Part shown: one piece after another, positions 1 to 32,164 of the stretch | How positions within the stretch are numbered: the first letter of the stretch is position 1 | How the letters are laid out: each line of letters begins with the position of its first letter | Virus record (IMG/VR): IMGVR_UViG_3300045988_145381 | Length of the DNA: 48,428 nt | Strand: one strand, 5' to 3' | Source: a virus | Taxonomy: Duplodnaviria > Heunggongvirae > Uroviricota > Caudoviricetes | Made by a program: the position numbers and the translations under genes | The notes under the pieces: model-generated | What the model saw: the letters and a program-made list of their open reading frames with translations, nothing else | Told to the model about the DNA's origin: nothing | Database searches by the model: none

Positions 1-128
1 GTTGACACCCTCGCATAACCATATTGCATACTTTCTAAACCGCGATTGTTGCTAAAAGCGGGAAAAAATATCGTTCAGACGACACAGAGGCAATTCGCAA
101 AAACCTCGGTTTACAGGAAACGGTAAAT
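1..128. repeat. 128-bp sequence identical to 48301..48428 (circular contig overlap)
   Basis: First 128 nt of the window recur exactly at the 3' end; the boundary coincides with the invertase crossover site. Confidence 0.9.
103..127. promoter_or_regulatory. DNA-invertase crossover site, left inverted repeat (gix/cix-like)
   Basis: acctcggtttacaggaaacggtaaa is the perfect reverse complement of 3155..3179; it lies about 75 bp upstream of the invertase start (wrap-around). Confidence 0.75.
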
Positions 129-1064
129 CAGGCTTCTGGCGCATTACAGAAAAACCAGAACGGCGCAGATATTCCGGGAAAAGATACCTTCACCAAAAAT
201 ATTGGGGCCTGCCGCGCATATAGCGCATGGCTGGATATTGGTGGCGATAGTCAGGTCTGGACAACCGCGCAATTTATTTCGTGGCTGGAGAGTCAGGGAG
301 CATTTAACCATCCTTACTGGATGTGCAAAGGCTCATGGGCTTATGCAAATAATAAGGTCATTACAGATACAGGTTGCGGAAATATTTGTCTTGCAGGTGC
401 TGTGGTGGAAGTTATTGGCACTCGCGGCGCAATGACCATACGCGTTACCACGCCGAGCACGTCCAGCGGTGGAGGAATTACTAACGCTCAATTCACTTAT
501 ATTAATCATGGTGATGCTTACGCTCCTGGCTGGCGACGAGACTACAACACGAAAAATCAACAACCTGCATTTGCTTTAGGGCAAACAGGAAGCACTGTCG
601 GAAATGATAAAGCTGTTGGCTGGAACTGGAATAGCGGGGTCTATAACGCAAATATTGGTGGCGCATCGACATTAATCCTCCACTTCAATATGAATACGGG
701 GAGCTGCCCTGCTGCACAGTTCCGCGTGAATTACAGAAATGGCGGAATCTTTTATCGTTCAGCGCGTGATGGTTATGGCTTTGAAGCTGACTGGTCAGAG
801 TTTTACACCACAACCCGCAAACCCTCTGCGGGAGATGTTGGTGCATATACGCAGGCAGAATGTAACTCAAGGTTTATTACAGGTATTCGCCTTGGCGGTC
901 TGTCATCTGTTCAGACATGGAATGGTCCCGGCTGGTCTGACAGGTCAGGTTATGTCGTTACGGGTTCAGTTAACGGAAACCGTGATGAATTAATTGATAC
1001 AACTCAGGCAAGGCCAATTCAGTATTGCATTAATGGAACGTGGTATAACGCGGGGAGTATTTAA
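104..1064 (+). CDS. silent alternative tail-fibre C-terminal cassette (no own start; fused to the constant part after inversion)
   Basis: Frame is open from 39 to 1064 without an upstream ATG; encodes ...LGLQETVN..., matching residues 454-461 of the expressed 792-aa fibre; C-terminal INGTWYN motif shared with the expressed fibre. Confidence 0.65.
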
Positions 1065-1066
1065 TT

Positions 1067-1600
1067 ATGATGCACTTAAAAAATATTACTGCTGGCAACC
1101 CTAAAACAAAAGAGCAATACCAGCTAACGAAACAATTTAACATCAAATGGCTTTACTCTGAGGACGGAAAAAACTGGTATGAGGAACAAAAGAATTTCCA
1201 GCCAGACACTTTGAAAATGGTCTATGACCATAACGGCGTTATTATTTGTATTGAAAAGGATGTTTCAGCAATTAATCCGGAAGGCGCAAGCGTCGTTGAA
1301 TTACCTGATATTACAGCAAATCGCCGTGCTGACATTTCGGGTAAATGGATGTTCAAAGATGGCGTAGTGGTAAAACGAACTTATACCGAGGAAGAGCAGA
1401 GGCAACAGGCGGAAAATGAAAAGCAAAGCCTGCTACAGCTCGTCAGGGATAAAACCCAGCTATGGGACTCACAGCTACGGCTGGGCATCATTTCCGACGA
1501 GAATAAACAAAAATTAACCGAGTGGATGCTCTATGCGCAGAAAGTCGAATCTACAGACACCTCCAGCCTGCCAGTAACATTTCCCGAACAACCTGAATGA
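1067..1600 (+). CDS. tail fibre assembly chaperone (Tfa), partner of the silent cassette
   Basis: 177-aa ORF directly after the alternative cassette; clear paralog of the 175-aa ORF at 1629..2156 (MMHLKNI.AGN.KT.EQY.LTK...). Confidence 0.7.
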
Positions 1601-1603
1601 GAC

Positions 1604-1630
1604 AAGGCCCGATAGCGGGCCTTAATTTTT
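1604..1630. terminator. hairpin terminator between convergent tfa genes
   Basis: aaggccc/gggcctt stem followed by a T-run, between the two convergent tfa ORFs. Confidence 0.5.
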
Positions 1631-2156
1631 ATTCAGGCTTTTGTGGCCATTCAGGATTTGCCGTATCCACACGGCTGACCAGAACACTGTAGCGTTCCCA
1701 TGACTCCAGTCGTGCGCGCTCCTCATCCGTCGCCATATTCAGCCTGACAGCGCGTTCCAGTGGCTGAATAACGCTTTCTGCTTCGGAAAGTAACGCGGCC
1801 TTTTGTGATTCGGCCTGTTGTTGCTGTTCGTCAGCCGTATAAATCCGTTTAACCACAGCTCCGTCCTTAAACATCCACTTCCCTGAATCATCGGCACGAC
1901 GATTGGCTGTTATATCGGGAACCTCAACGACGCTAAAGCCTTCAGGGTTAAGCGTAGAGGCATCCTTGGTGATAGCGACAATAATATTATTTTCATCGTA
2001 AACAATCTTTATTGTGTCTGGCTGAAAGTTTTTCACTTCCTCATACCAGTTTTTTCCGTCCTCAGAGTAAAGCCAGATAACTCCGTGTTTCTTTGTTAAT
2101 TCGTACTGCTCAAGTGTTTTAGCGTTACCCGCTTTAATGTTCTTTAAGTGCATCAT
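1629..2156 (-). CDS. tail fibre assembly chaperone (Tfa), expressed orientation
   Basis: 175-aa ORF immediately downstream of the tail fibre gene; paralog of 1067..1600. Confidence 0.75.
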
Positions 2157-2157
2157 A

Positions 2158-4536
2158 TTAAACGCTCGCTACATTATACCAGGTGCCATTTATATACTTT
2201 TGAACGGGTCTGTAATAAACGCCCGCTATATTATCGGCAGAGTTGGACCCTGTATCCTGAACATTAATACCAGACAATACATGACCTGACGGGCACTGGA
2301 AATTCCATGTTTGCCAGTTGTTCACTCCATAATATTGCTGTGAACCAAGTCGAACATCTTTCACATATCTGGAATCAAAATTGCCATAGTTGCCGGGAAT
2401 AACTTGCGCACCGCAAAGCCAGTTTCCGTTATTATCCATGTACGCCTGACCATCGGTGCCATTGGCTGTCCTTGAATTATTAATCATGTAGATGCCAAAT
2501 TGCTTGTTCCCCAGTCCACCTATCATGAACTTGCGGTCGGCGTGATTCTGGCGAAGCAACGCCTGAGCGCTATCAGTGTTAACTATATTTTTCCCAAAGA
2601 TAGCGTTGTTATCGCGCATCTGAATCCACATACCATTACTGCTGTTAATAGCAAAACGGTCTGAAAGTGTCTCCCCTGAAACATTAAGACCACGCCCCAT
2701 CGAAACAGCGCCAGTAGCGTTATTAATCCATAATGGCCTTAATCCGTTATAAGTCCCCATGTTGTCACCGGAGTTTGTCAACATGAAGTATGTATTTGAA
2801 CCATCATTACGAATAAAGAATCCGTAATTACCATAAGCAATACGTAGGCCGTTTGCTGATTTTGATATGACTTCGCCATTTACAATGGCATTGACAAGAA
2901 CATACAAAGCATCCCATTTAAGATTCATCAGGTCTTTTGTTGTGGTACTTTGTTTGCTTCTCCATTTGAAATATTCATTGCCGTTGTCGCCTGTCTCAAA
3001 CCACATGTATGAATCAGTGTCACCATCGGCATCATTTTTAAATCCAATCTTCGCCCAGTCAGTATTTCGAATCCAGGCAAGGATTGAGTCATTTTCAAAA
3101 GTAAGCCCGCCGGACAAGGTATCGCCTGTCTTTTGAACGGCGTTACCAGCCTTGTTTACCGTTTCCTGTAAACCGAGGTATTCGATAACGGCAGCAACGG
3201 TCGATTTCGCAAGAATATCCCGCCCGACTTTTGTCAGGGTTGCCAGGCTGGCGACATCATTCCCCGTAAAATACGGAAACTTGTCTGCCGCAGTAGCAAG
3301 CCCGGCCAGCGCCGTCAGGGTGGCATCTTTCGGTTGCTTACCCGCAAGCGCGTTAGTCATGGTGGTCGCAAAATTCGGGTCGTTTCCCAGAGCCGCCGCT
3401 AACTCGTTCAGCGTATTCAGTGCGTCAGGTGACGAGTCCACGAGGGCAGCGATCGCAGCCATAACGAAAGCCGTGCTTGCGATTTGGGTATTATTCGTTC
3501 CCTGTCGCGCAGTTGGCGTTGTTGGCGTTCCGGTCAACGCAGGACTGTTTAAGGGCGCTTTCTTGTTCGTTTCATCCATTACCGCCTTGACCGCTTTCGA
3601 TGTCGCGGCCAGTGTTTCAGACGTGCTGTTGGTGGAACTACTGAGCTGAGTTATTCCCCTTACAGTCAGTGAAGCTACAGGCACATTTGTTATCTGCTCC
3701 CACGAATGCGTGTGATTGGACGGAGCCTTTCCGGCCGCAAGATCATACGCTGCCTTAACAGCCTTTGGTGTTGCTGCTAGCGTTTCAGACGTGCTGTTGG
3801 TGGCACTACTGAGCTGAACAATCCCTTTTCGCGCTGTGGTAGCGTCCTGTGCGGTGTATTTGCCATTAGCCAGGTCATATGCTGCCTTAACAGCCTTAGG
3901 CGTCGCAGCAAGCGTTTCAGACGAGCTATTGGTGGCGCTGCTAAGTTGAACAAAGCCTTTTGAGGTTAAAGTTGCATCAGGATGATTACGTGATTGTTCA
4001 TGTTTCACAATGGCTTGCTTAAGCCGCTTTGCTGAAACAGCAAGGGAATCATCTGTACCGTCATCAATTTCTTGTTCATTGGCAAATCTTGCAACCCCAA
4101 CAACAGTTTCGGTTGCGGGAGGATTAATAAACTCAATATCACCAAATGTAATATTTTTAGTATCAAGAGTCTTGATTGCTATGTCACTTGATATTAAAGC
4201 AATAGTAGATGATGCTTTATTTATTATTGCTTGTTCTTGCGAGTATACAGCAAACAACGTTCCCTTATTTGTATACAATCCTATTGTATGGACAACATAC
4301 TCATCTTTACTATCATCCTTCGCCGTTACATGAATTGTATCAGGGGAAACAACTTTGCCACCTATTGTGGTAAGTCGTTTTATTTCGTTTGTTATATTTG
4401 TTTGTGAAGTTGACGTGACATAATATCTACTACCTAAACCAACAGAAACAATCTCAACTTTATTTGTTCCTGTTTTGTTGGCATTAACCAGCTCCTGACG
4501 CCCGGCGTCAGTCATCGTAAATAATAATTTACTCAC
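2158..4536 (-). CDS. tail fibre protein (constant N-terminal part plus currently expressed variable C-terminal part)
   Basis: 792-aa ORF with three tandem ~33-aa repeats (G[IF][27 protein letters not shown]) typical of phage tail-fibre repeats; crossover site inside the ORF; followed by tfa. Confidence 0.85.
3155..3179. promoter_or_regulatory. DNA-invertase crossover site, right inverted repeat (inside tail fibre ORF)
   Basis: Perfect reverse complement of 103..127; falls at codons ~453-461 of the fibre. Confidence 0.75.
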
Positions 4537-4566
4537 GCTTAATTCCTTGAATTAACAAATTGCGAA

Positions 4567-5148
4567 TTAGCACTCGCCAATTAATCGTACATAAGACACA
4601 GGCTGACAAGCACCAACAATACCGACACCACCAGAAACATTGGCTGCTTGCGAAAATGTAAATAATGTTCTTGCCGACTTTGCGCTCTTGATACTTCTTA
4701 ACGTATCTTCCAACATCTCTTTCGAAGGAACGGCACCATCAAAAGAGTTAATCGAAGCAACAATTGAGGCTGTATATGGTTCGCCAGGTGGTGATGTTTC
4801 AAACCATTCTGTTATGTTTACCTCTCCACCCAAGCTATTTACTACATCTTCAACCGCTGCCCTTGTACCCTTTATTCGCTTTGTTCGTATTATTGATTTA
4901 AAAACAGAACGCTTTAACGATACAGGCCAACTATCCCTCCATGTATCAGCATTCCATTGCCAAGCTAAATGATCGAGAACAACTGAGTCCAGGTTATCAA
5001 CAACGCTATATATTTCTGTCTTATATATTAAATTGTTAATTGCTTGTAGTTCATCATCAATAGCTTTCGACATAGCTATCACGTTGGGATCTCTAGCTAA
5101 GTTAGGAGGTAAAACATCCAACAAGCTAACATTAAAGATATCAGCCAT
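4567..5148 (-). CDS. tail/baseplate protein (P2 gpI / Mu gp48-like)
   Basis: 193-aa ORF between the baseplate J-like gene and the tail fibre, the conserved position in P2/Mu-type tail modules. Confidence 0.5.
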   Translation of the reverse strand: MADIFNVSLLDVLPPNLARDPNVIAMSKAIDDELQAINNLIYKTEIYSVVDNLDSVVLDHLAWQWNADTWRDSWPVSLKRSVFKSIIRTKRIKGTRAAVEDVVNSLGGEVNITEWFETSPPGEPYTASIVASINSFDGAVPSKEMLEDTLRSIKSAKSARTLFTFSQAANVSGGVGIVGACQPVSYVRLIGEC

Positions 5149-6265
5149 CCTCTAACCCCGCATACTGGCAATTTATATTTCTCTCTCTGGCGACCTGCGT
5201 CTCTCCAACTACAGTAAATACAGGACTTGATATTTCTAATCTTTTAGCCCCGGCATTTTTTAAACGTTGAATAATTTCATCTGGATTTATATCTCTTCCC
5301 ATAACCGAACGTTGCCATTGTTTATACTCATCAAGAGCTTTCTCAACCTCACTTTGAATTAACGTTGTTCTGTTTTTGTCCGATGAGTTAATCCAGTATT
5401 TAATTATTATATCGTATTCAATGCTCTCTGGTTTCTTAACAAGAACTTTATCTGTGAATGGTCGAATATTAGTTGCAGAGAGAACGCTATTTATCTGCTC
5501 TAATAGTTCATCAGAAGGTATATCCCCGTTCTCTAACAAAGAACGGATTTCTACAGTTCCGGGCGATGGTGTATATACATTCACATCTTTTATATTCTGA
5601 TTGGCTGTTCTTGTCCAATATTTATAAGAATCCTCCGGCCCTGCTGTAGACAGTTTTTCCGGCGACAGTTTTATTCTTTCAGCATAATTATCATCTGACT
5701 CTGTATCAGCACCAGAATTAGATGTTGTTAGATTCCTTACGCTGGAAACATACGGCAACGGAGTCACCAACTCGTTTATTTGCCCAGGTAAAAATCCATT
5801 CCCCGATAAGCCAGGTATAACAGCATATCCTGAGACTGTACCAACTGTTTTCCCAGCTGGTATTTCCAACAAAACATCTGTTTGGAAAATAACACTATTT
5901 CCAGTTGAAATTTGAGTGCCAGCAGGTATTGTATATATCCCCGATAATTTTGTTGACAGATTAAACTCAAATGTAGTCAAGGCAGATTGAGCTTCCAGCC
6001 TAGGCGTATCCGTCAGATAGCCTATATGGTCGAGATATTCACCCCCACCATATGTAAGAAGGTTTTGTTTTGCAGAAAAATCGATAGCTTTTCTTTGCTG
6101 TATAATAATCTCACACAATGACAAGATGAATAATCTACGTGGATCAGCAGGTGCTAATGTTTCACCTGTTATACTCTCAAAAGCCCTGATTGAACGAGTT
6201 GTTATATCAGTCGGGTTAGAATCTGCGAAAGTAATATCTGGCAAACCACCGCGCGGCAACGTCAT
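5141..6265 (-). CDS. baseplate protein J-like
   Basis: 374-aa ORF, translationally coupled to its neighbours, in the J position of a P2/Mu-type baseplate cluster. Confidence 0.6.
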   Translation of the reverse strand: MTLPRGGLPDITFADSNPTDITTRSIRAFESITGETLAPADPRRLFILSLCEIIIQQRKAIDFSAKQNLLTYGGGEYLDHIGYLTDTPRLEAQSALTTFEFNLSTKLSGIYTIPAGTQISTGNSVIFQTDVLLEIPAGKTVGTVSGYAVIPGLSGNGFLPGQINELVTPLPYVSSVRNLTTSNSGADTESDDNYAERIKLSPEKLSTAGPEDSYKYWTRTANQNIKDVNVYTPSPGTVEIRSLLENGDIPSDELLEQINSVLSATNIRPFTDKVLVKKPESIEYDIIIKYWINSSDKNRTTLIQSEVEKALDEYKQWQRSVMGRDINPDEIIQRLKNAGAKRLEISSPVFTVVGETQVARERNINCQYAGLEDG

Positions 6266-6582
6266 TCTCTAACTCCTATCACAAGTTTTGGCCTAATAAA
6301 ACCATCAGAAACGTCCGTTCTTTCAAAAGTAACAGAATGGATAATCGCTCTAGGCTCAAACTCACTAATTTTTTGAATTATTTCTCGTGTTGCTGTAGCA
6401 ATAAAAATTGGGCTAGGGCTATCAACAAGACTTGAATTAACTCCTAATTTTCTGGCATATGGTACAGTGCCAATCTGAGTATTAATAATAGTAGAGACAT
6501 TTTGCAAAACTTCTTCTACAACTGTTTTGGGCGACCAATCAATCGAGTAAGAAGGTGATGATATGGTAAACGTATTATTCAT
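6262..6582 (-). CDS. baseplate protein (P2 gpW / T4 gp25-like)
   Basis: 106-aa ORF; size and position upstream of J. Confidence 0.5.
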   Translation of the reverse strand: MNNTFTISSPSYSIDWSPKTVVEEVLQNVSTIINTQIGTVPYARKLGVNSSLVDSPSPIFIATATREIIQKISEFEPRAIIHSVTFERTDVSDGFIRPKLVIGVRE

Positions 6583-7046
6583 AATAATTTACCTAACGCA
6601 CTTCTAGTTTTTGACTCTATATTGCCAGCAATATCAACTAATGCTTCTTTCAGAGAGGTCTGTCCGACTTCCTGTAATTTAATGCCGACGATAATCACTC
6701 GTGGATTCCCAGTTGGACCGAAATAAGTCCATGATTCCTCTATATCTGTAATTATAAAATTACCAAAATACTGAATACCAATTACAACAGGATTTACTTC
6801 CTGAATTGATTGCATTGTCCTAAGTAATGAAAGCGCAGCCAATGGAACAATGCCAAGTGTTGTATCCAACCGCATATTAAAACTAACTTCATCCAGATCT
6901 GGACCTATATCCTCCAGAACAGGTTTAAGCCCAATAACATCATGGCGCGCTACACGACGCTTTGACGTCCTTTTAAAATTGTTGAACGTATTCACCACTA
7001 TTGATGAGGCAACAAAAGGCATTGTACCAAGCATACCCACAATCAT
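6579..7046 (-). CDS. putative baseplate-associated protein
   Basis: 155-aa ORF coupled between the V-like and W-like genes; no recognisable motif. Confidence 0.3.
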   Translation of the reverse strand: MIVGMLGTMPFVASSIVVNTFNNFKRTSKRRVARHDVIGLKPVLEDIGPDLDEVSFNMRLDTTLGIVPLAALSLLRTMQSIQEVNPVVIGIQYFGNFIITDIEESWTYFGPTGNPRVIIVGIKLQEVGQTSLKEALVDIAGNIESKTRSALGKLL

Positions 7047-7662
7047 GCCTGAGCCTCCGTTGTCGGAGCGTATTCCCCCTGAGCCGTGTGATGGTGGCCT
7101 TTAGATTTAATCCCATCAACATCTATATCACCACCAACAACCTTAACATCCCCAGAAATTGTAGCTGCAACACCTCCAGCAGAAGATCCTTTCATTCCAC
7201 CTTTGAAGGTTAGTAATCCTTCAACTGTAGCATTTCCGGTAATGATGGTTTCTGGAGCATCAATAGTTACGGTTCCTGTAGCCTTAACGGTTACATCTCC
7301 GACAGCATCAACAAGGAGTAAATTAGATTCTCTGTCTACCTCAATACGAGTTCCGTTATTAAATCTAATGACGCGTTTATTAACAGTATTAGATGGCGGC
7401 TTCTGTGTTTCATCATAAAAACTACCAAGAATAAACCTTGTTGCGGCCCTGCGGGATGAAAGATACACAAAACTTGCTCACCAATATCTGGCATCCAGTA
7501 ATCAGCATTCTTATCCGTATTTTTCACAATAACTGATAACTTTGCCGAAGTGACGTTATCCTGATCATCGAAAGTAACTCTTGCTGTAACATCGCCATCA
7601 TCAATATCAGAAACAACGCCAACTCTTATAGTCTGACGTAATAATGTTTCTAAATCATTCAT
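7043..7662 (-). pseudogene. baseplate assembly protein V-like gene split by a frameshift
   Basis: N-terminal part (ORF 7336..7662, ...IGEQVLCIF...) and C-terminal part (ORF 7043..7468, ...VKATGTVTID...VVGGDIDVDG...) are in different frames; the break maps to a ccc run at 7447..7449. Confidence 0.55.
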
Positions 7663-7664
7663 AA

Positions 7665-8666
7665 TTAATACCCATTAATTACTCTTCGGACATCAATCGA
7701 GGTGGTATAACCACTAGCCCCAATTGAATGCACAGCTTTCGATATAAGATATTTTCCAGAAAATGAACCGAATCCGTCCAGATTTATAGTTACACCAGCT
7801 ACCAATCTGGTGTCTCCAACCAATACTAAAGATCCTGTATTTTGATATCTATTTTTAAGCCGCAAAGCAGCCTTTGCCTTACGTTTTGCTTCATCTAAAT
7901 TAGCTACCAGTTTTCTTATCTTAAGATTCGACCCTTCTTCTACGGATGGATCTACCCAAGTATACGAAAGCGACTTTCTTTTTTTAGGTACGCGATATTT
8001 GCACGTGCAACTTTTATACAAATCTGTAGATTGTGTGCTAAAGCTATATCTGATTATCTCATCAATACCTAACGTAAGCGTAGCGATAGGATCTTTTTGC
8101 TCAAACATCTCTTGAGCAAATATTATTAATTGGCTATCAGTGACCTTTAACGACAACCCTTCATCCTGGCATAGTCGATGGAGAAATTTTAAATCGCTTT
8201 CCTCCATTTGATCTTCACGCGCATAATATGGATTACTATCACCATCAATAAGAAACAACAGTTCAAGGTTAGCTAATTTAGCTATAGAGGTTGCTATATC
8301 TTTAAGAGTTGTTTTTTCCCATGCATTACTTTTTAAATCACGTCTAATGCCTGATGAAACAGGAACAGAAACAGCAGTCACCTCAACAACAGAAGGTGGT
8401 CCAGAGCAAGTTATGCCATCTACCTGGAATTTCCCGCACTCAAGGACGATTTGATTTATAGGCTTAAAGCTCAAATCAATAAAATCACCCTTTTTAGGTG
8501 TCCAGTCTCCAGACCATTTCCCATCATCATTTTTTAATATAATAGAAATATCATCGACCTGACCATCTTCATTATCTGTATAAGACATTGACAAAACATC
8601 AGGTGACATATGAGCGGTAATATTTACATTCTGATATATAACATCAAAAAGCGTTTTACGTAACAC
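7665..8666 (-). CDS. tail protein D-like (late control D family)
   Basis: 333-aa ORF directly downstream of the X-like gene and tape measure, the conserved gpD position. Confidence 0.6.
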   Translation of the reverse strand: MLRKTLFDVIYQNVNITAHMSPDVLSMSYTDNEDGQVDDISIILKNDDGKWSGDWTPKKGDFIDLSFKPINQIVLECGKFQVDGITCSGPPSVVEVTAVSVPVSSGIRRDLKSNAWEKTTLKDIATSIAKLANLELLFLIDGDSNPYYAREDQMEESDLKFLHRLCQDEGLSLKVTDSQLIIFAQEMFEQKDPIATLTLGIDEIIRYSFSTQSTDLYKSCTCKYRVPKKRKSLSYTWVDPSVEEGSNLKIRKLVANLDEAKRKAKAALRLKNRYQNTGSLVLVGDTRLVAGVTINLDGFGSFSGKYLISKAVHSIGASGYTTSIDVRRVINGY

Positions 8667-8874
8667 TATTGCGTCTCCACGGAGGCAAATTGTTTACTGA
8701 TATTGGCATAACCGGAGCATCAGGAACTTTAAGAATAATTCCCGCAGAAAAAAGCACCGTAAAGCGGTGCTCAGTATTAGCATCAATAAGAAGATAAGAC
8801 AGGTACTCATTACCATACAACTTTAACGCGATACTATCCCATGAGTCCCCTTGAACCGTTCTATAATCATCCAA
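8656..8874 (-). CDS. tail protein X-like
   Basis: 72-aa ORF overlapping the end of the tape measure gene, the typical gpX position and size. Confidence 0.5.
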   Translation of the reverse strand: MDDYRTVQGDSWDSIALKLYGNEYLSYLLIDANTEHRFTVLFSAGIILKVPDAPVMPISVNNLPPWRRNSVT

Positions 8875-11659
8875 AACTTAATCTCCGTTGTTGGAACATA
8901 TGAGCACTCAATTTCTTCTCAAAATCAGAATATCCCGCATCTAATGCTCTTTTAGCTGCCGCCTCAGTTTCCTTTGGTGAACCAGCCGGAAGATTGATTA
9001 CAGGTGAATAGGTTATTCCACCAGTCACAGCATTAACGTTCTGGCGAGGTCCAGAAGTCCCGGCGGCAGATATCCCGTGAGGTGATAAATTTGATTGCCC
9101 GAACTTGGTTGCTATTGCATTCTGTAAGCTGTTATTCCTGCTAACGCCTGATGCCAGAGTAGTCATTATTGCACCACCTGACTTTGTTAGCTGTGAGAAT
9201 GGACCTTTTTTCGCGTCAGAGAACGGTAAATACTCACGTACAGAAGAAAAAACGCCTTTCACTTCATTAATTAAAGCATTTGCTTTTGATTTTATCCCAG
9301 TGATTAACGTCTCAATTATTTTTGCGCCTGACTCACTCCAGTTTATTCCAGACAAATAAGCCGTTACAGATTGGAATGCTCTTATAAAGAGTCCAACTGG
9401 TGAAAAACGCATAAAAACAGATACCAGTGTATCTATGATTTTCTTTCCTGTTTCGCTCCAGTTAATACCAGAAAGGTAATTTGTTGTAAGTTTAAATGCT
9501 TTAATTAAGAACGGAAGCGGAGACATCCATTTAAAAGCACTAATTAATGTACTGTAAATTCTTACTCCTGCCGAACTCCAGTTTATGTTGGAAAGATAAT
9601 CCCATGCTTTACCAAACATAGATATAATCCATCCATTGAGATCAAAGTTTAAGATAAATTTTTTTATAGCTTCAAACGATTTAACTGTATATTCCTTAAC
9701 AGAAGGCCAAACTCTGACAGCATAATCTCTGATCTTATCCCAGTTCTGATAGAGCAATATTCCTGCGGCAACCAGCGCAGATATAGCCATCTGAATCCAC
9801 CCGAAGGGTGTTAGCTTTGTCGCTACAGATAAAGCCAGCATAGCTACCCTACACGCTATAACCACACTTTTCATGGTTAGAAACGCACCTGCCGCCATCA
9901 CAATCTGAGACACAAAATTGGGGTTGTTAGCTACAAATTCACTAATTTTTGTAATCAGCGGAACCAAAACACTAAGCGCGGCATTCAAAGCAGGTTGCAA
10001 GGCCTGACCAAAACTTAATGATGCATTGCTAGCCTGAATACGTAATTGTTTCAATCGCTCCGCATTGTCTTTCGTTATGTTGGCAAAATCGCGGTCAATA
10101 ACAGCACTTCCAGCACCAAGAGATGTTGCTTTGATTCTCTGGTATTCCTTCCAGTTTTGAATCATCGGACGAACAAAGTTCTGAACCTGCATATCGCCAA
10201 ATAGCTCACCAAGTAACTTCTGATCTCCGTTCTTAGTCATTTTCATGACAGAATGCATTGCAGCTTCGAATGGATTCTTCCCTTTTTTCTGCGCTGTTGT
10301 GACAATTTTATATAAATCTACACCGAAATTTTTCTTTGCTTTTTTTAGTGTTTCAGGGGAAAGTATTTTCGCCAAAAAGTTGTTCATATTATTAGCAGCC
10401 TCATCCGAAGTTGCAGCACCTTTGCGAGCTATCTGCAAAGCTGCCCCCATCGTCGCGGCGGCTTCTTTACCTCCCATTTTTAATGCCTGGAACTGAGCAC
10501 CAAGCACAGGAAGATTTTTGGCCATATCTTTAAATTCAAAGTTTCCCTCTTTCCCTGCCTGAACCAGAATCCCCATTGCAGACTTCATTTGAGATGGATC
10601 AATCTTCAATGAGTCACTTAATGTAAATGATGCTTTCGAGACATCGAGGATATCAGAGCCAGTAGCTGTAGCTGTTCGCCCAATAGTTAGTAGATTCGCC
10701 TGAGCCTCTTTATAATCCTGCCCAGCAGCGACGAGAAAACCCTGAGCGGCCTGAATATCAGATGCAAACTGGTTGGTGGCCGTTCCGGTAACAAGCATCG
10801 CCTGCCCCATCGCCTGAACTTCTTCCGGCTTCATATCTGCCGTAAGACCAATCATTTTGTTTTCACGATTGAAATTTGCTGCATTGTTAGCAGCAGCAAA
10901 TGCACCAGCCGCTACAGCACCAGTTTGTAATCCTGACCTTACAAGTTGACTCTTTGCCTCACCAAGATGCTCTCGCTTCAATTCACGCTGCCTTTCCAAC
11001 GCGCGGTTTAACTCCTCCTGAGCACGTTTTACTGCAAGAACATTTTTCCGTGCTTCAGCCAACGCATTTTTATAGCTGTTAATTTTATCAATACGTTGTT
11101 TTTCTAATGCCCGGTTAAGTTCCTCCTGCTGTTTTTTCACTTGCTGAACATTTGCTCTGGCTAAAGCCAAAGCCGTTCTGTAGCGGTTAACCTGCTCAAC
11201 GCTACGGACCTGAGCCTCACGATTACGATCAATGCTGGCTTTAAGCTCTTTCTCTCTTGAGGCCAAAGCTCTGGCAGATGTATCAGCTCCCTGATAGGCA
11301 GACTTTAAAGCGGCCAGTTCTTCACGCTGAGAACGTAGTGATGCTCGTAAATTCGATGAATGTGTTTTTGCCTTCTCAAAGTCACGAAGCATCGCTCTGG
11401 TTGGATTGGCCGTGTTTTTTATTTGCTTCTGTAACTCTTCAACGCGAGCGGCAGCTTTATGATATTCGAGGGCAGTCTGTCCAACCTTTACTTTTACAGA
11501 TTGTAGCTTTTGAATTTCCCCATGTTCTTTCGTTAATCCAGCAAGCTCGGCATTTAATTTAGCAACAGCCTGATTAGCTGTAGTAAAACTTTTGGGGAGA
11601 GAGGCGGCAACTTTGCCGCCAATTTCAAAAGCCAGCTTAAAGTTCTTATTGCTGGCCAT
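8867..11659 (-). CDS. tail tape measure protein
   Basis: 930-aa ORF, long coiled-coil N-terminal half (repeated ...QEELNRALE...), hydrophobic segments and Gly-rich C-terminus; follows the chaperone pair. Confidence 0.85.
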   Translation of the reverse strand: MASNKNFKLAFEIGGKVAASLPKSFTTANQAVAKLNAELAGLTKEHGEIQKLQSVKVKVGQTALEYHKAAARVEELQKQIKNTANPTRAMLRDFEKAKTHSSNLRASLRSQREELAALKSAYQGADTSARALASREKELKASIDRNREAQVRSVEQVNRYRTALALARANVQQVKKQQEELNRALEKQRIDKINSYKNALAEARKNVLAVKRAQEELNRALERQRELKREHLGEAKSQLVRSGLQTGAVAAGAFAAANNAANFNRENKMIGLTADMKPEEVQAMGQAMLVTGTATNQFASDIQAAQGFLVAAGQDYKEAQANLLTIGRTATATGSDILDVSKASFTLSDSLKIDPSQMKSAMGILVQAGKEGNFEFKDMAKNLPVLGAQFQALKMGGKEAAATMGAALQIARKGAATSDEAANNMNNFLAKILSPETLKKAKKNFGVDLYKIVTTAQKKGKNPFEAAMHSVMKMTKNGDQKLLGELFGDMQVQNFVRPMIQNWKEYQRIKATSLGAGSAVIDRDFANITKDNAERLKQLRIQASNASLSFGQALQPALNAALSVLVPLITKISEFVANNPNFVSQIVMAAGAFLTMKSVVIACRVAMLALSVATKLTPFGWIQMAISALVAAGILLYQNWDKIRDYAVRVWPSVKEYTVKSFEAIKKFILNFDLNGWIISMFGKAWDYLSNINWSSAGVRIYSTLISAFKWMSPLPFLIKAFKLTTNYLSGINWSETGKKIIDTLVSVFMRFSPVGLFIRAFQSVTAYLSGINWSESGAKIIETLITGIKSKANALINEVKGVFSSVREYLPFSDAKKGPFSQLTKSGGAIMTTLASGVSRNNSLQNAIATKFGQSNLSPHGISAAGTSGPRQNVNAVTGGITYSPVINLPAGSPKETEAAAKRALDAGYSDFEKKLSAHMFQQRRLSFG

Positions 11660-11664
11660 TAGTA

Positions 11665-11847
11665 TTAATCCTCATTAAACACATCAATCCATGCGACGAT
11701 TCGCCTCAACCGAAGCGAAAGCCAGTAGGATATAGGTGTTGATTGAGATGATTGAGATAGAGAACTCGCGGCCCTCATTATTTGCTTATCAATAGGTTTT
11801 TGCTCATCAAAACCTACGAGAGCAAAAAATTCTGTACCTTTTGACAA
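11665..11847 (-). CDS. frameshift extension of tail assembly chaperone (E+E'-like product)
   Basis: 60-aa ORF in the -1 frame overlapping the chaperone 3' end; minus-strand T-TTT-TTG slippery sequence at 11833..11839. Confidence 0.5.
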   Translation of the reverse strand: MSKGTEFFALVGFDEQKPIDKQIMRAASSLSQSSQSTPISYWLSLRLRRIVAWIDVFNED

Positions 11848-12095
11848 ACTTTAACAAAGTCTTTCGCTGGCAATCCATTCAGATACTCTATTGGACGGCC
11901 AATACAGCGAGCAGCCAAGGCTGCATGGACTTTATTATCAAGTGATGTTTGAACTGAAACATGCCCTTGAGATTGCAGTAAGTCCGATACCTCTAAAATA
12001 TCACTGCCTTTTAGGTTGTCTAAATCAAGGTTGAGTTCAGTCACCGGCTCAAAGTCTTCAAAACGATATTCTTTACTTAATTTAACGGTTTCCAT
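11814..12095 (-). CDS. tail assembly chaperone (P2 gpE-like)
   Basis: 93-aa ORF between tube and tape measure; slippery heptamer near its 3' end. Confidence 0.6.
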   Translation of the reverse strand: METVKLSKEYRFEDFEPVTELNLDLDNLKGSDILEVSDLLQSQGHVSVQTSLDNKVHAALAARCIGRPIEYLNGLPAKDFVKVCQKVQNFLLS

Positions 12096-12104
12096 TTTGT
12101 CACC

Positions 12105-12626
12105 TTATAAACCTAAATCATCACGAACGCTTTTTAATATATCTTCACCATCAAAGATACAAATAAAGTTCAACTTATCAATTTCCAAGACTTCTTTTCC
12201 ATCAATAAATAATTTGATATAGAGAACTTCAAATTCATTCTCTGAATCAGTAGCCTTTGCCACCTGTAGCGAACCTAAATCCAGTTTTTTAGGGTTTAGC
12301 TTCATTGAAGCCCGAATAGGAACCGTTTTATATTTTCCTGTTCCTGCATCATAAACCTGCTGGCTACCGCGAAAATCTACCTGATGCGATGAGGATAGAA
12401 ATAATTTTGTACCAGCAGAGGTCAGAGTTCGCCATTTAAGAGAGACAGTCATTGGTTTGAAATGCCCCAGCGTTCCGCTCTCAAGCTCTCCAGCGATACC
12501 TGCACCACTAACAGTTTCTGTCATCATCTCAATTGATGGCAGCTTTGCGTCAGCAACACCGATAATACGGTTTCCCTCACCGTATACTGTAAAGTTAATA
12601 AGTCTCTCAGGAATTTGATTGCTCAA
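12105..12626 (-). CDS. major tail tube protein
   Basis: 173-aa ORF immediately downstream of the sheath gene. Confidence 0.75.
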   Translation of the reverse strand: MSNQIPERLINFTVYGEGNRIIGVADAKLPSIEMMTETVSGAGIAGELESGTLGHFKPMTVSLKWRTLTSAGTKLFLSSSHQVDFRGSQQVYDAGTGKYKTVPIRASMKLNPKKLDLGSLQVAKATDSENEFEVLYIKLFIDGKEVLEIDKLNFICIFDGEDILKSVRDDLGL

Positions 12627-12642
12627 AGCAACCTCCTATTAT

Positions 12643-14106
12643 TTATTCAGAAAACAAGTTCAGCAGATAATCAGGATTATATTCCATGACGAACTCTATA
12701 TCTCTGGCAGGTGAGAATGGTGTCATTTTTACATGGAATTTAACAATCCCGTCCATCAATGACGTAATCGTGTTTTCAGATTGATCAAAGGTAACAACAC
12801 CACCTGCAATATCCTGATTACCTGTGAGGCCGTTAAGCCAAATATTCGCACTTGTAACAATCGATTCAATTAATCGACGGTTTGCAGGATTGTCTATTTT
12901 TGACCAATGCGAAAGAATTAACGTATTACCCACCCAGTTAAACATACGTCGGCAAACACGAAATGCGTCTTTGGGGTCTGTAGATGTTGGATAAATAGCA
13001 TTACGGTTTCCCCATGATTTCCAACCATCAAAATTAAGGCTTGTTACAATCCCCTGTCCATTTAAGTAGTTTGCCTGGCTAATGTTAAGCCATACTTCAC
13101 TGCCATCTTTACGTACAGCACCGTCCATCTGTAGTTTTATATTTGACGGAGAACGTGATGGAATATCACCATACTGACTATCCAGCAAGCATGTTGCGGC
13201 CGCTAAATGGGTTGAGTGATGGTAAATATTGTCACCAAGTTTCACCATCGGCCAGCACACTGTCTGGTTAGCGGCCATGTGATTATTGTTCTGTTTCCAT
13301 TCAGGAACAGCCGAGTAATCACTGATAGTAGATTTATCGGTCGGTGCATCAGTTATGGCTTCTGCTTTGAACAATTCACTAATCAACGCGGCTTTAGCCG
13401 CCATTAGCTGACCAACTTCACTATCAGAACTAAATCCAGGCGCAATCACTTGTCCAGGAACCAACTTGAAGCGGGGATACACATCAGACAGTAACTCAAG
13501 CCCTGTATTGGCTTTAGTGTTGGAATCCACACCACCGATAATGTCATTTTTAGTTACGGCACCGGGATCAAGATGCGTATAACTAACCTTAAGAGTAGCG
13601 TCTTTTTCGGTAATTTTTCCTCCGCTAATAGCGGTAATGACCGTATAGCCATTATCATCCAGCGCCAGCACATAATCGGTGTCAACCGTTAATCCTGCCG
13701 AATCACCATCTGCTTTTTTCACAACAACAGATTTATATAAGACACCATCGTTAGAGAGCGTACCTTTCCCGCCAGAAAGTTTTACTACCTCATCAGTTAC
13801 GTCTTTCTTATGCTTTGCTGGATCAAGCACATTAATAAATACAACTGGCGCAACACCATATATTCCAAATGCGACTTTAATTACTTCGCTTAAAGTATAT
13901 TTCTCGAAGTTTGTGCTATATCCTATTTTAGATACGGCCTCTGCGTATGTATAAGCAATGATAGGTTTATTTACCGCTGAGGCTGGATCTTCTAACTGAT
14001 TAACAGGAGCTGTACCAAATGCGACAATCAACCCAGCACTAACTTGTACTGGAGGAGTTATAGATGTAGCCAGCTCAGATATATAAATACCGTGGCGATA
14101 TCCCAT
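12643..14106 (-). CDS. contractile tail sheath protein
   Basis: 487-aa ORF with sheath-like N-terminus (MGYRHGIYISE...), followed by the tube gene. Confidence 0.85.
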   Translation of the reverse strand: MGYRHGIYISELATSITPPVQVSAGLIVAFGTAPVNQLEDPASAVNKPIIAYTYAEAVSKIGYSTNFEKYTLSEVIKVAFGIYGVAPVVFINVLDPAKHKKDVTDEVVKLSGGKGTLSNDGVLYKSVVVKKADGDSAGLTVDTDYVLALDDNGYTVITAISGGKITEKDATLKVSYTHLDPGAVTKNDIIGGVDSNTKANTGLELLSDVYPRFKLVPGQVIAPGFSSDSEVGQLMAAKAALISELFKAEAITDAPTDKSTISDYSAVPEWKQNNNHMAANQTVCWPMVKLGDNIYHHSTHLAAATCLLDSQYGDIPSRSPSNIKLQMDGAVRKDGSEVWLNISQANYLNGQGIVTSLNFDGWKSWGNRNAIYPTSTDPKDAFRVCRRMFNWVGNTLILSHWSKIDNPANRRLIESIVTSANIWLNGLTGNQDIAGGVVTFDQSENTITSLMDGIVKFHVKMTPFSPARDIEFVMEYNPDYLLNLFSE

Positions 14107-14396
14107 TATTTAATCTCCATGATAGAAGAAGAAACTCTAGAGTACATTACATACTCGACACTGGTTTTATCAGAAAGTCTTTTTTCTGCATCTGCAAAAT
14201 CACTGGTTGCCACAAACAAACACTTTGCACCAGGAATATGTGATATTAATTTTTTACACTCTGGAGATAAACCATTCTTAAATAGTTTATGCTTCAAAAT
14301 TGAGAGTTGAGGGATTGTTGGTCCTATATATACAAATGTTTGAGCAACATCTTCCTTCTTTTCTATATCTTCTTTACTACTTTTCTTATTAGCCAT
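14106..14396 (-). CDS. hypothetical structural protein
   Basis: 96-aa ORF coupled upstream of the sheath gene. Confidence 0.35.
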   Translation of the reverse strand: MANKKSSKEDIEKKEDVAQTFVYIGPTIPQLSILKHKLFKNGLSPECKKLISHIPGAKCLFVATSDFADAEKRLSDKTSVEYVMYSRVSSSIMEIK

Positions 14397-14846
14397 TTAG
14401 ATAAACTCCTGAGACTGAATATTCTGAGGCTTTAATACTAGCCACGTTCCAGTTGCTTCCGTTATCCAATATGGATATGGTTGATCATCAAACATTCGCC
14501 ATCTGATATCACCCTGAAAGAGAAATTTCTCTTCAAGTAAAGGCTTCTCCTGAAAATGAAACATCATCCTTTCAAGAAGAGCCATTACCCATTCATATCC
14601 AGTATGGTCCTCACAAAAACCACCTAGAAGAAACTTAACCTTAACTTCATCCGTTTCAGGCTGCATTCCTCCTTCCGTGGGCCTGATAATCACATGAGGA
14701 AATTCTGGCGGTTTATCTGGAGATGGTTGTGATTTAGGAGGCAAGTACCCTTTAAATATTGTTGGAACAAACAATTTAATATCGCTGTCTGTTTCATCAT
14801 AAGGAGGCCCCTGCACTAATAAATCATGGAAAACCTCATGTTCCAA
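14397..14846 (-). CDS. putative tail completion / head-tail joining protein
   Basis: 149-aa ORF between head and tail blocks. Confidence 0.35.
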   Translation of the reverse strand: MEHEVFHDLLVQGPPYDETDSDIKLFVPTIFKGYLPPKSQPSPDKPPEFPHVIIRPTEGGMQPETDEVKVKFLLGGFCEDHTGYEWVMALLERMMFHFQEKPLLEEKFLFQGDIRWRMFDDQPYPYWITEATGTWLVLKPQNIQSQEFI

Positions 14847-14879
14847 CCGATTTTTTCATTGCATCTATCAAAAGATTAA

Positions 14880-15224
14880 TCAAATCGGCATTCCTCTGTT
14901 AGTATTAACAGTGAGAGTTATTTCCAATACACCAACATTATCTGATACTTCATCAATAATATAATTTTTACCGTTGATTTTCATTGACTGGTCTTTGACA
15001 GGGAGAACAGGAAAATCTTTTCTTGAAACAAATAATATTATTTGCCCCTGATTTATTCCCTCTGCAAACTCAGCATATGAGCGTTTATTCCGCTCATGAA
15101 TAAGGTCTGTATCAATAACGGCAAGGATATCCTTGCCGTCTATGTTATATGTATCGGCAAACTCTTTTTCATTGAGGAATATTGCAGAAATATCTTGCGC
15201 TATAACCTCTTTGAAGGAGTTCAT
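14880..15224 (-). CDS. putative head-tail connector protein
   Basis: 114-aa ORF between head and tail blocks. Confidence 0.35.
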   Translation of the reverse strand: MNSFKEVIAQDISAIFLNEKEFADTYNIDGKDILAVIDTDLIHERNKRSYAEFAEGINQGQIILFVSRKDFPVLPVKDQSMKINGKNYIIDEVSDNVGVLEITLTVNTNRGMPI

Positions 15225-15616
15225 TACTTCTTATTACCTTTTTTTTGCGTTGATTTTTTCGCATTACTGGTATCAGAAGTAGCTACAGATTCAGATGAAT
15301 CATCAGCAACCGTTTCCTCATTGCCGCCATCATCCTCAAACTCAACCTCGAATACACAGCTACCCGCCTCCGTTCGCGTAATCAACCCCGCGTCCACAGC
15401 ATCATTAACAGCAGATGCGTATCCATGCTCAAAAGCTAACTTAGCAGCATCATAGCCCCCGGCCGATGCCAAATCACCATCCTCTTCGGTGGCAATAGCA
15501 TGTCCTGACGCAATCAGTTCGGCAATTCTGGAGTTATCCATTAGCCCATTAAGCAAACGGCCCGCTTTTAGCGAGCCGTGGCTTATCGTATCAATGTTTT
15601 TAATCAGTCTGGCCAT
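15224..15616 (-). CDS. hypothetical head-associated protein (acidic C-terminus)
   Basis: 130-aa ORF directly downstream of the major capsid gene. Confidence 0.35.
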   Translation of the reverse strand: MARLIKNIDTISHGSLKAGRLLNGLMDNSRIAELIASGHAIATEEDGDLASAGGYDAAKLAFEHGYASAVNDAVDAGLITRTEAGSCVFEVEFEDDGGNEETVADDSSESVATSDTSNAKKSTQKKGNKK

Positions 15617-16660
15617 TTAAACCACCTTAGCCACCAGATAGGCATCAGCCACACCAGGATTAGGCAGTGGAGATGACTTCATGGCAACATAACGGCCAGC
15701 CGGCTTACGAGTTACCCAGGTGTCTGGAACTCGTGGTGACTCAACAATCGTTAGAGTCTTTTCGGCGTCATCTACAAGCTCTACAGCACCATACAGCATC
15801 GTTCCTCGACCAGGAGAGCCAAAGAGGATCTTATCTTCCGGTACTAATGGTTCTGGTTTTCCTGTTTTATCATTGCGAATAAGTTCGTCGTAACCATAAA
15901 AATCGACACCTTCAAGATTGCCATAATGAGTTACGCCTTCTTCTAACTCCTTAGGCTCAATATACCCAAGCTCTTTTCGGCGATTATCAAGATATTTAGT
16001 TACTGCTTCATTTTTAACGAAAGCATCAACAACTTTTGCGCCCATTACGGCAACACGAGGTGTAAAACCTGAAGTTAGTGATACCCGACGTTTCCAGTTG
16101 CGAACATTGACCAACGGATCTGATTTTGCAGCACTCCATAAATCATCACCTGTCAGTTCAAGATATGGTTTATCTCCTTCCTCTTCAGGCCAAAAATAAA
16201 CTGTGTCATCCACACCTTCACCAACAATATCAACCTGCCCCGTAAACAAGACTTGTGCACACATCCATTCTTCACGGCGGTTAACCATTTCATCAAGCTC
16301 AAGCAAATCTTTACCTAATTGCTCGGCGGCTCGTTCTGCTGGCGATTTTGCGTTGTAAATATTCTCACCCGGAAGCCTGTTTAAAAGCAGCTCTGCTGTT
16401 GTTACCAAATCAGGTGCAACAAGTGGTGGCTCCAGAGTTCTCGTTACAAAGCCGCGTCGCTCAACGGTTTTTGAGCCAAAACCTTTACCAACAAACGGAG
16501 CCATAGTACGGCCACCGCGAACAAAATCCAGATCAACTTTCTTTGTATTAAAGGTCTGAACACCAGGAAAAAAGGTACGAAGAAGAAAACGACGAGCCTT
16601 GAAATTCTGAATAACAGGCTCAAGCATTGTACGTCGTTCAAAAATATCAATATTCGGCAT
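15617..16660 (-). CDS. major capsid protein (lambda gpE-like)
   Basis: 347-aa ORF after the decoration-like gene; size and order match lambda E. Confidence 0.7.
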   Translation of the reverse strand: MPNIDIFERRTMLEPVIQNFKARRFLLRTFFPGVQTFNTKKVDLDFVRGGRTMAPFVGKGFGSKTVERRGFVTRTLEPPLVAPDLVTTAELLLNRLPGENIYNAKSPAERAAEQLGKDLLELDEMVNRREEWMCAQVLFTGQVDIVGEGVDDTVYFWPEEEGDKPYLELTGDDLWSAAKSDPLVNVRNWKRRVSLTSGFTPRVAVMGAKVVDAFVKNEAVTKYLDNRRKELGYIEPKELEEGVTHYGNLEGVDFYGYDELIRNDKTGKPEPLVPEDKILFGSPGRGTMLYGAVELVDDAEKTLTIVESPRVPDTWVTRKPAGRYVAMKSSPLPNPGVADAYLVAKVV

Positions 16661-16680
16661 AAAAATACGACCTCTTTATA

Positions 16681-17064: not shown

Positions 17065-17073
17065 AAACTCACC

Positions 17074-29315: not shown

Positions 29316-29391
29316 TGGTGGCCCCTACCGGATTTGAACCGATGACCGTGCGATTATGAGTCGCCTGCTCTAACCACTGAGCTAAGGGGCC
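29316..29391 (-). tRNA. tRNA, anticodon CAU (Ile2-like or Met)
   Basis: 76-nt cloverleaf GGCCCCTTAGCTCAGTGGTTAGAGCAGGCGACTCATAATCGC...GGTTCAAATCCGGTAGGGGCCACCA with encoded CCA; 5' half matches E. coli ileX-type tRNA as recalled from memory. Confidence 0.85.
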
Positions 29392-31167: not shown

Positions 31168-31176
31168 TGAAATCCT

Positions 31177-32060: not shown

Positions 32061-32164
32061 AATCCATCATCCCGTAATGTTTCATTAACCCCATCCGTCG
32101 GTTGCTGAGTCTCACCCACTGCCAGACGCCAGGAGCGTTTCTACGAACTAACAGAATCTTTGCT

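What the first reader, a model, noticed from the sequence alone, without database searches (positions are those of the whole stretch)
7043..7662. Baseplate gpV-like gene interrupted by a frameshift in a short G/C run
The N-terminal part (...IGEQVLCIF...) and C-terminal part (...AATRFILGSFYDE...VVGGDIDVDG...) of a gpV-like protein lie in different frames with the break at a ccc run (7447..7449); one extra base would restore a single ~205-aa ORF. This could be a sequencing error, an inactivating mutation making the virion defective, or a slippage-prone switch.
Basis: seen in the sequence. Interest (0 to 1): 0.45.

Follow-up and report, generated by a model that had tools for sequence, protein, structure and literature searches.

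The report
One-base deletion splitting phage gpV gene
A tail-spike (gpV) gene of a common ~48-kb E. coli phage-plasmid is broken by one missing T that no other public copy lacks; this is most likely a sequencing/assembly error, otherwise a very recent knockout, and not a regulatory device.

Summary
The frameshift is in the sequence. The minus-strand gpV gene (7043-7662) is split into a 108-aa N-part and a C-part in the -1 frame. The break is not in the G/C run at 7447-7449. It is a T4->T3 deletion on the coding strand at 7433-7435.

The window is a ~48-kb IncFII-RepA myovirus phage-plasmid of Escherichia. All other copies examined have T4 and an intact 206-aa gene: 59 PLSDB plasmids, 60 listed of 71 E. 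coli plasmids, 5 phage records, 7 IMG/VR contigs and 12 metagenome contigs.

A near-identical contig (JARDZB010000034.1) has the same start and orientation and has the gene intact. Window-private changes across the whole window are 5 single-base indels, 1 substitution and 1 dinucleotide swap. One of these indels is a second frameshift, at 14857. Six relatives show 282 private substitutions and no 1-bp indels in the virion module.

There is no slippery heptamer and no long homopolymer at the break, and the break is not conserved. A real programmed -1 site (T_TTT_TTG, 11823-11829) lies in the same window for contrast.

Verdict: an ordinary, non-programmed private indel. Consensus error ~0.6; recent null mutation ~0.35; switch, recoding or functional split under 0.05 together. 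Low interest.

The parts
7043..7662 (-). gpV-type baseplate central spike gene (OB-fold domain plus trimeric beta-helical spike), 620 nt here against 621 nt / 206 aa in all relatives
7433..7435 (-). Actual frameshift site: coding-strand T3 where every relative has T4 (+ strand AAA vs AAAA). It falls at codon 77 of 206, in the last strand of the OB domain.
7336..7662 (-). N-terminal fragment ORF: 76 native residues plus a 32-residue out-of-frame tail (LFLVVFMMKHRSRHLILLINASLDLITELVLR). It still scores as Phage_base_V (26 bits).
7043..7468 (-). C-terminal fragment ORF (-1 frame) carrying the Phage_spike trimer domain and the His-rich apex (GHHHT). Its only start is a fortuitous GTG at 7468, out of frame in the intact gene, with a GGTGAG 8 nt upstream.
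7447..7449 (-). It has the same length in all relatives and is not the site.
7594..7594 (-). The only window-private base substitution in the whole window (G vs A on + strand; synonymous GGT->GGC). It lies in the same gene, 159 nt from the deletion.

Best explanation
The gpV gene carries a private, non-programmed one-base deletion (T4->T3, window 7433-7435). It separates the OB-fold N-domain (residues 1-76) from the rest of the spike protein. It is not an evolved feature of this phage-plasmid. The most likely origin is an error in the consensus sequence of this particular record (sequencing or assembly indel). The real molecule would then encode the normal 206-aa gpV and nothing unusual happens biologically.

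Shown: the site of the deletion; that it is unique to this sequence; that the restored protein is identical to the relatives' protein; that recoding signals are absent.

Inferred: that the deletion is an artefact rather than a real mutation. This rests on the indel-dominated spectrum of window-private differences.
For: (a) All other copies have T4 and an intact 206-aa ORF: 59/59 PLSDB plasmids span 122 nt for the 121-nt query. The same holds for 60/60 listed of 71 E. coli RefSeq plasmids, all annotated 'phage baseplate assembly protein V'. It also holds for 5 phage records, 7 IMG/VR contigs, 12 metagenome contigs and 29/29 fetched loci.

(b) Contig JARDZB010000034.1 (48,423 bp; same start coordinate and orientation as the window) encodes the identical tape-measure allele and has gpV intact. 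Over 14.8 kb it differs from the window at 3 positions only, and 2 of these are the window's frameshifting indels.

(c) Whole-window census of window-private changes: -A 7435, +C 14857, +T 34925, +T 34975, +T 34993, TA->AT 34941-2 and one substitution at 7594. That is 5 single-base indels to 1 substitution to 1 swap. Six relatives together show 282 private substitutions and no private 1-bp indels in the 22.7-kb virion module (Fisher p=0.002). The probability of at least 5 indels among 7 events at a natural indel share of 10% is 2e-4.

(d) Two of the four insertions are not duplications of a neighbouring base (C between T6 and A at 14857; T between C and A at 34975). That is atypical for replication slippage.

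(e) All other virion proteins are 100% identical to those of the closest annotated relative L005, except the tape measure at 99.9%. There is therefore no sign of relaxed selection on the module.

(f) Adding one T restores a protein identical to the one encoded by the relatives, annotated WP_000998645.1.
Against: No reads are available, so an artefact cannot be proven. The window shares its start and orientation with a draft-assembly contig. I inferred from that (without checking the sequencing platform of either record) that both may be short-read assemblies, for which five indel errors in 48 kb would be unusually many. If the three T insertions plus the swap within 70 bp are counted as one complex event, the excess of indels is only suggestive (P~0.05 at a 10% indel share). 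JARDZB itself has a private 1-bp deletion in another gene (31656), so private frameshifts, real or not, occur in other records of this plasmid. Phage-plasmids are known to decay into defective elements (PMC12977533).
Confidence: 0.6

Rival explanations
1. The deletion is real: a very recent spontaneous loss-of-function mutation. The cell would make a 108-aa OB-domain fragment and no spike. By analogy with P2, where gene V is needed for baseplate and tail assembly, this copy of the phage-plasmid could replicate as a plasmid but could not build infectious virions. That would be an early step of phage-plasmid domestication or decay. The second frameshift, in the virion structural gene at 14857, would fit such decay.
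For: The sequence as given contains the deletion. A second virion gene is also frameshifted. Another record of the same plasmid has its own private 1-bp deletion. Defective phage-plasmids that arise by loss-of-function mutations are described (PMC12977533). A T4->T3 loss is a plausible slippage product.
Against: The private spectrum of 5 indels to 1 substitution is far from natural mutation spectra and from what the relatives show (282:0). Every other virion protein is unchanged. None of about 130 other copies carries any gpV frameshift, so such alleles do not persist. Two of the private insertions are non-templated.
Confidence: 0.35
2. The break is a programmed recoding site or a phase-variable switch. 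Ribosomes (-1 frameshift) or polymerases slip at the short run to make full-length gpV at a regulated level, or the run length toggles in the population.
For: The C-part lies in the -1 frame, the direction used by most phage programmed frameshifts. An A-site-only T_TTA context exists at the break. A -1 event exactly there would give the native sequence QQG-FILG.
Against: There is no canonical X_XXY_YYZ heptamer anywhere in the 139-nt overlap zone. The run is 3 nt, far below lengths that support transcriptional slippage or phase variation (established knowledge, not tested here). No homologous copy has the split arrangement and no length polymorphism exists among about 130 copies. The same window has a textbook programmed -1 site in the tail-chaperone gene: T_TTT_TTG in phase, with a 143-aa product matching tail assembly chaperone phrog_3140. 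This shows what a real one looks like in this genome.
Confidence: 0.02
3. The split is real and tolerated. The OB-domain fragment and a separately translated beta-helix fragment (from GTG 7468, with GGTGAG 8 nt upstream) assemble non-covalently into a working two-piece spike.
For: An SD-like GGTGAG lies 8 nt upstream of GTG 7468. Isolated C-terminal spike fragments of P2 gpV and Mu gp45 appear in the PDB as separate chains (3qr7, 3aqj, 3vto).
Against: The GTG and its SD-like sequence are present but out of frame in all intact relatives, so they are not evolved signals. The break removes the last strand of the OB domain and adds 32 foreign residues. No natural two-gene version was seen in any relative.
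Confidence: 0.01

Closest known systems
Bacteriophage P2 gpV baseplate central spike (PDB 3qr8; TIGR01644 phage_P2_V)
   Same: The restored 206-aa protein aligns over residues 3-196 with P2 gpV (E=7e-13). It has the same N-terminal OB domain (Phage_base_V), the same C-terminal trimeric spike (Phage_spike) and a His-rich apex. It sits in a P2/Mu-like baseplate gene row: gpD-like, V, GpU-like, W, J, I, tail fibre.
   Different: In this window the gene is one base short and read in two frames. Sequence identity to P2 gpV is low, so it is the same family but not an orthologue at high identity.
WP_000998645.1 'phage baseplate assembly protein V' of ~48-kb Escherichia phage-plasmids (e.g. NZ_AP025749.1, NZ_CP023368.1, ATCC 25922 48.5-kb plasmid) and of Yersinia phages vB_YpM_39/41/44 and Escherichia phage vB_EcoM-613R2
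   Same: The DNA is 99-99.7% identical. After adding one T the protein is 100% identical. Gene order and neighbours are the same.
   Different: Only the T4->T3 deletion and one private synonymous change (7594).
Programmed -1 frameshift of tail assembly chaperones (P2 E/E', lambda G/GT type)
   Same: Two overlapping frames with the downstream part in -1.
   Different: The chaperone site has a conserved, phased slippery heptamer and is present in this very window (T_TTT_TTG at 11823-11829). The gpV break has no heptamer and is not conserved in any relative.
Homopolymer-tract phase variation (contingency loci)
   Same: A change in the length of a mononucleotide run shifts the reading frame.
   Different: Contingency tracts are typically 7 nt or more and are polymorphic between isolates (established knowledge). 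This run is 4 nt and invariant in about 130 copies.

Membership tests
P2-type baseplate assembly protein V / central spike (TIGR01644; Pfam PF04717 + PF18715) | Whole-protein match to the family model above the curated cutoff | tested here: met
   For the restored sequence (identical to the relatives' protein): TIGR01644 106.6 bits vs cutoff 46.75, model positions 2-191 of 192.
P2-type baseplate assembly protein V / central spike (TIGR01644; Pfam PF04717 + PF18715) | N-terminal OB-fold domain followed by a C-terminal trimeric beta-helical spike domain in one polypeptide | tested here: not met
   Both domains are present: PF04717 31.1 bits (GA 23.8) at residues 14-83 and PF18715 30.3 bits (GA 28.2) at 123-165 of the restored protein. 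In the window as given they lie in two frames. With one T added they form a single chain.
P2-type baseplate assembly protein V / central spike (TIGR01644; Pfam PF04717 + PF18715) | Sequence similarity to a solved gpV spike structure over its full length | tested here: met
   3qr8_A (P2 gpV) E=7.4e-13, query 3-196 vs chain 9-201. Weaker hits to 4s37, 3aqj and Mu gp45 (9ki1_V, 3vto).
P2-type baseplate assembly protein V / central spike (TIGR01644; Pfam PF04717 + PF18715) | Position in a contractile-tail baseplate gene cluster | tested here: met
   Flanked by a gpD/late-control-D-like gene (7665-8666) and a Phage_P2_GpU-domain gene (6579-7046), then gpW, gpJ and gpI.
Programmed -1 ribosomal frameshift site | Slippery heptamer X_XXY_YYZ in phase within the frame-overlap zone | tested here: not met
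   No canonical heptamer in 7339-7477; only A-site-only contexts.
Programmed -1 ribosomal frameshift site | Two-frame arrangement conserved in homologues | tested here: not met
   All homologous copies examined have a single uninterrupted 206-aa ORF.
Phase-variable homopolymer switch | Long mononucleotide tract whose length varies among isolates | tested here: not met
   The tract is T4 in every other copy and T3 here only. The longest runs in the gene are 5 nt.
Sequencing/assembly indel artefact | Reads disagree with the consensus at the site | not testable with these tools
   No reads are available. The indirect test was met: the private-difference spectrum is 5 indels: 1 substitution: 1 swap, against 0: 282 in the relatives.

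The most novel reading that the evidence does not exclude
The deletion is real and this is a naturally caught, very recent step in which a circulating E. coli phage-plasmid loses virion production (gpV and a second structural gene knocked out) while it persists as a plasmid. More exotically, enough full-length gpV might still be made by low-level -1 slippage at GGT_TTA, which would regenerate the native QQG-FILG sequence.
Probability: 0.3. Interest if true: 0.2.

Novelty: already known. Interest (0 to 1): 0.06.

Why it matters
It matters little biologically. In practice the gene should be annotated as a frameshifted gpV (probable sequence error) and not as two hypothetical proteins, a novel split spike or a recoding site. 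Any statement that this phage-plasmid copy is defective should wait for read-level confirmation. The case also shows that a break in a two-frame overlap cannot be placed by eye. Comparison with relatives moved it 12-14 nt and changed its nature from a G/C run to a T run.

Tried and rejected
- An exact-product look-up of the 108-aa N fragment found nothing on record, so the source record or any sister carrying the same allele is not in that collection.
- A genome contigs pattern scan gave 0 hits for either allele. This is uninformative, because the collection holds one genome per species and evidently none carrying this plasmid.
- Look-ups with ParB_N, ParA and the 155-aa protein returned only more distant relatives, because these proteins are too widespread. 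The tape measure, the 393-aa ORF6N/Rha protein and the 92-aa protein retrieved the near-identical contigs.
- A first position-keyed scan for private indels missed those in runs, because BLAST places the gaps differently. It was replaced by anchor-based allele polling and an explicit alignment.
- The 12 'private' substitutions of the 7-genome panel shrank to one once closer relatives were added.
- I considered that the window might be JARDZB010000034.1 with noise added. This is neither supported nor excluded. Both share start and orientation, but JARDZB has private changes of its own (22429, 31656).
- The literature search found no study of this gene or of a frameshift in this phage-plasmid group.
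- Structure prediction was not run, because sequence evidence for family and domain layout was already decisive.

Full report
**1. What is in the sequence**

- The genes of this region lie on the minus strand.
- ORF 7336..7662 (108 aa, ATG) begins MNDLETLL...IGEQVLCIFHPAGPQQG and then runs into 32 residues of out-of-frame sequence.
- ORF 7043..7468 contains ...FILGSFYDETQKPP...VVGGDIDVDGIKSKGHHHTAQGEYAPTTEAQA in the -1 frame relative to the first.
- The two frames overlap without stop codons for 139 nt (7339..7477). The sequence alone therefore does not say where the frame changes.

**2. Where the break really is**

- The window is a member of a common group of ~48-kb Escherichia elements.
  - Plasmid functions: IncFII-type RepA, ParA, a RelE/HTH toxin-antitoxin pair and an XRE repressor.
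  - Phage functions: a complete myovirus virion module, holins with a GH108 lysin, and a tail-fibre invertase.
- The same element is recorded both as plasmids and as phage genome records: Yersinia phages vB_YpM_39/41/44 and Escherichia phages vB_EcoM-613R2/473R2.
- In all of these the gene is a single 621-nt CDS of 206 aa, annotated 'phage baseplate assembly protein V'.
- The nucleotide alignment shows exactly one indel: coding-strand CAAGGTTTTATT in relatives against CAAGG-TTTATT in the window. This is a T4->T3 deletion at window 7433..7435.
- Adding one T at 7433-7435 gives a protein identical to the relatives' protein.

**3. What the gene is**

- The restored protein scores 106.6 bits on TIGR01644 phage_P2_V (cutoff 46.75).
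- It has Pfam Phage_base_V (OB domain, residues 14-83) and Phage_spike (123-165), both above the gathering scores.
- It aligns over nearly its full length with the P2 gpV crystal structure 3qr8, E=7e-13. PHROGs calls it a baseplate assembly protein/spike.
- It sits between a gpD-like gene and a GpU-domain gene, followed by W, J, I and the tail fibre.
- The break falls at codon 77, in the last strand of the OB domain, upstream of the whole beta-helical spike.
- From established knowledge of P2 (not tested here), V is required for baseplate and tail assembly. A real truncation would therefore abolish infectious particles.

**4. Is it an evolved feature (switch or recoding)? No.**

- The T3 allele is unique to this window. 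Every one of these copies has T4:
  - 59 of 59 PLSDB plasmids;
  - all 60 listed of 71 complete E. coli plasmids (all 40 listed are 621 nt);
  - 7 IMG/VR contigs;
  - 12 metagenome contigs;
  - 29 of 29 fetched loci.
- All 24 loci that hold the whole gene give a 206-aa ORF.
- There is no canonical X_XXY_YYZ heptamer in the overlap zone and no run longer than 5 nt in the gene.
- For contrast, the same window holds a textbook programmed -1 site in the tail-assembly-chaperone gene.
  - The site is ...AAT TTT TTG..., with T_TTT_TTG in phase at 11829..11823.
  - Its 143-aa frameshift product ends six bases before the tape-measure ATG and matches tail assembly chaperone phrog_3140 across the junction.

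**5. Error or real mutation?**

Reads are not available, so I looked at the company the deletion keeps.

(a) Broken genes
- tblastn of all 68 proteins of the closest annotated relative (L005) shows every virion protein at 100% identity (tape measure 99.9%), except two broken genes.
- One is gpV. The other is a 161-aa virion structural protein (phrog_2581), which has a single G inserted just before an A6 run at codon 9. On the + strand this is a C at 14857.
- That insertion is also absent from all 59 plasmid records.

(b) Relatives as controls
- In a 7-genome alignment of the 22.7-kb virion module, the six relatives have 282 private substitutions and no private 1-bp indels.
- The window has two private 1-bp indels (Fisher p=0.002).

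(c) The near-identical contig
- The window's exact tape-measure allele led to contig JARDZB010000034.1 (GCA_029075465.1). It is 48,423 bp long and has the same start and orientation as the 48,428-bp window.
- Over 2868-17660 the two differ at three positions only: -A 7435, A/G 7594 and +C 14857.
- Over 19685-39967 they differ at seven positions.
- A second near-identical contig (L031) covers 31062-48428 and 1-3946.

(d) Allele polling
- Polling each differing site across all fetched loci gives these window-private changes:
  - -A at 7435;
  - +C at 14857;
  - +T at 34925, +T at 34975 and +T at 34993;
  - a TA->AT swap at 34941-2;
  - a single substitution at 7594, synonymous and also inside gpV.
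- The spectrum is 5 single-base indels : 1 substitution : 1 swap.
- At a natural indel share of about 10% (a figure from general knowledge, not measured here), the probability of at least 5 indels among 7 events is 2e-4. If the 70-bp intergenic cluster is counted as one event, it is about 0.05.
- Two of the insertions are not duplications of a neighbouring base, which is unusual for replication slippage.

Together this looks like residual consensus error in this one record rather than natural divergence.

Against that:
- The shared contig start with a draft assembly led me to infer a short-read assembly, but I did not verify the platform of either record. For short reads, so many indel errors would be unusual.
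- JARDZB has a private 1-bp deletion of its own at 31656, which shortens a 142-aa gene to 120 aa.
- Phage-plasmids do decay into defective elements (PMC12977533).

I therefore put about 0.6 on an artefact, about 0.35 on a genuine very recent null mutation, and at most 0.03 together on a switch, recoding or a functional split.

**6. Functional split?**

- A GTG at 7468 with GGTGAG 8 nt upstream could in principle start the C fragment. Isolated C-terminal spike fragments of P2 gpV and Mu gp45 exist as separate PDB chains.
- These 'signals' are also present, out of frame, in every intact relative. The OB domain would lose its last strand and gain 32 foreign residues. No relative has a two-gene arrangement. 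I reject this reading.

**7. Comparison with what is known, and novelty**

- The gene is an ordinary member of the P2 gpV/TIGR01644 family, in a well-sampled phage-plasmid group.
- That group is not one of the ten curated phage-plasmid types of PMC12977533, which are P1-, SSU5- or N15-like and others.
- The frameshift is either a sequence error or a banal pseudogenising mutation. Nothing here is new in kind.
- Interest is low. The useful outputs are the corrected break position, the demonstration that the allele is private, the second frameshift, and the indel-rich private spectrum that casts doubt on the consensus quality of this record.

Noticed in passing
window 14857 (gene ~14397..14882, minus strand): A second private frameshift. 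A single base (C on + strand; G just 5' of an A6 run on the coding strand) is inserted at codon 9 of a 161-aa virion structural protein (phrog_2581), which is intact in all 59 plasmid records and all fetched loci. The remaining ORF starts only at a TTG 12 codons in.
   Followed up: yes
window 34925-34993 (intergenic, between the DUF3560 gene start at 34829 and the gene ending at 35004): A cluster of window-private changes within 70 bp of an AT-rich spacer that is otherwise almost invariant in 19-22 relatives: three single-T insertions (34925, 34975, 34993) and a TA->AT swap (34941-2). The insertion at 34993 creates a TTGACA on the + strand. Either a low-quality consensus stretch or one complex event; the cause is unexplained.
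   Followed up: partly
window 11823-11829 (minus strand), gene 11817..12095 and extension to ~11665: A canonical programmed -1 frameshift site T_TTT_TTG in phase at the end of the 93-aa tail assembly chaperone gene. The 143-aa -1 product ends just before the tape-measure ATG (11659) and matches tail assembly chaperone phrog_3140 through the junction (P2 E/E'-type).
   Followed up: yes
L048 (JARDZB010000034.1), corresponding to window 31656: The near-identical contig has its own private 1-bp deletion (CATGGTTTTT -> CATGTTTTT). It shortens a 142-aa gene to 120 aa, while the window and 10 other loci have the intact allele. Private frameshifts are thus not unique to the window's record.
   Followed up: partly
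window 41065-42246 (+ strand): A 393-aa ORF6N + Phage_pRha (antirepressor-like) gene is intact in the window and in L030/L031. In the annotated relatives L004, L005 and L015 it is shortened to a ~210-240-aa Rha protein, and L004 and L015 additionally carry an ORF6N pseudogene fragment.
   Followed up: no
window 405-2156 and 47779-48330: Tail-fibre host-range switch architecture: a recombinase (Hin/Cin-like, 184 aa) next to two oppositely oriented tail-fibre-assembly genes (1067-1597 +, 1632-2156 -) and a detached tail-fibre C-terminal segment (405-1061 +). Relatives show alternative orientations and alleles.
   Followed up: no
window 42470-42495: A poly-C tract (C8 followed by TCCCCCC) upstream of a 62-aa gene varies among relatives (C8, A+C7, C7). 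It is the only tract in the window with real length polymorphism among copies.
   Followed up: partly
window 29316-29391 (minus strand): A single tRNA gene with anticodon CAT (ARAGORN: tRNA-Met). The homologous gene is annotated tRNA-Ile in RefSeq relatives (consistent with a lysidine-modified CAT) and tRNA-Met in the Yersinia phage record.
   Followed up: partly
window 27542-27553: A 12-bp in-frame tandem duplication (CATTCTTCTGG...) in a 155-aa gene relative to L004-L006. It is shared with other relatives (e.g. L021, L033-L035), so it is natural variation.
   Followed up: partly
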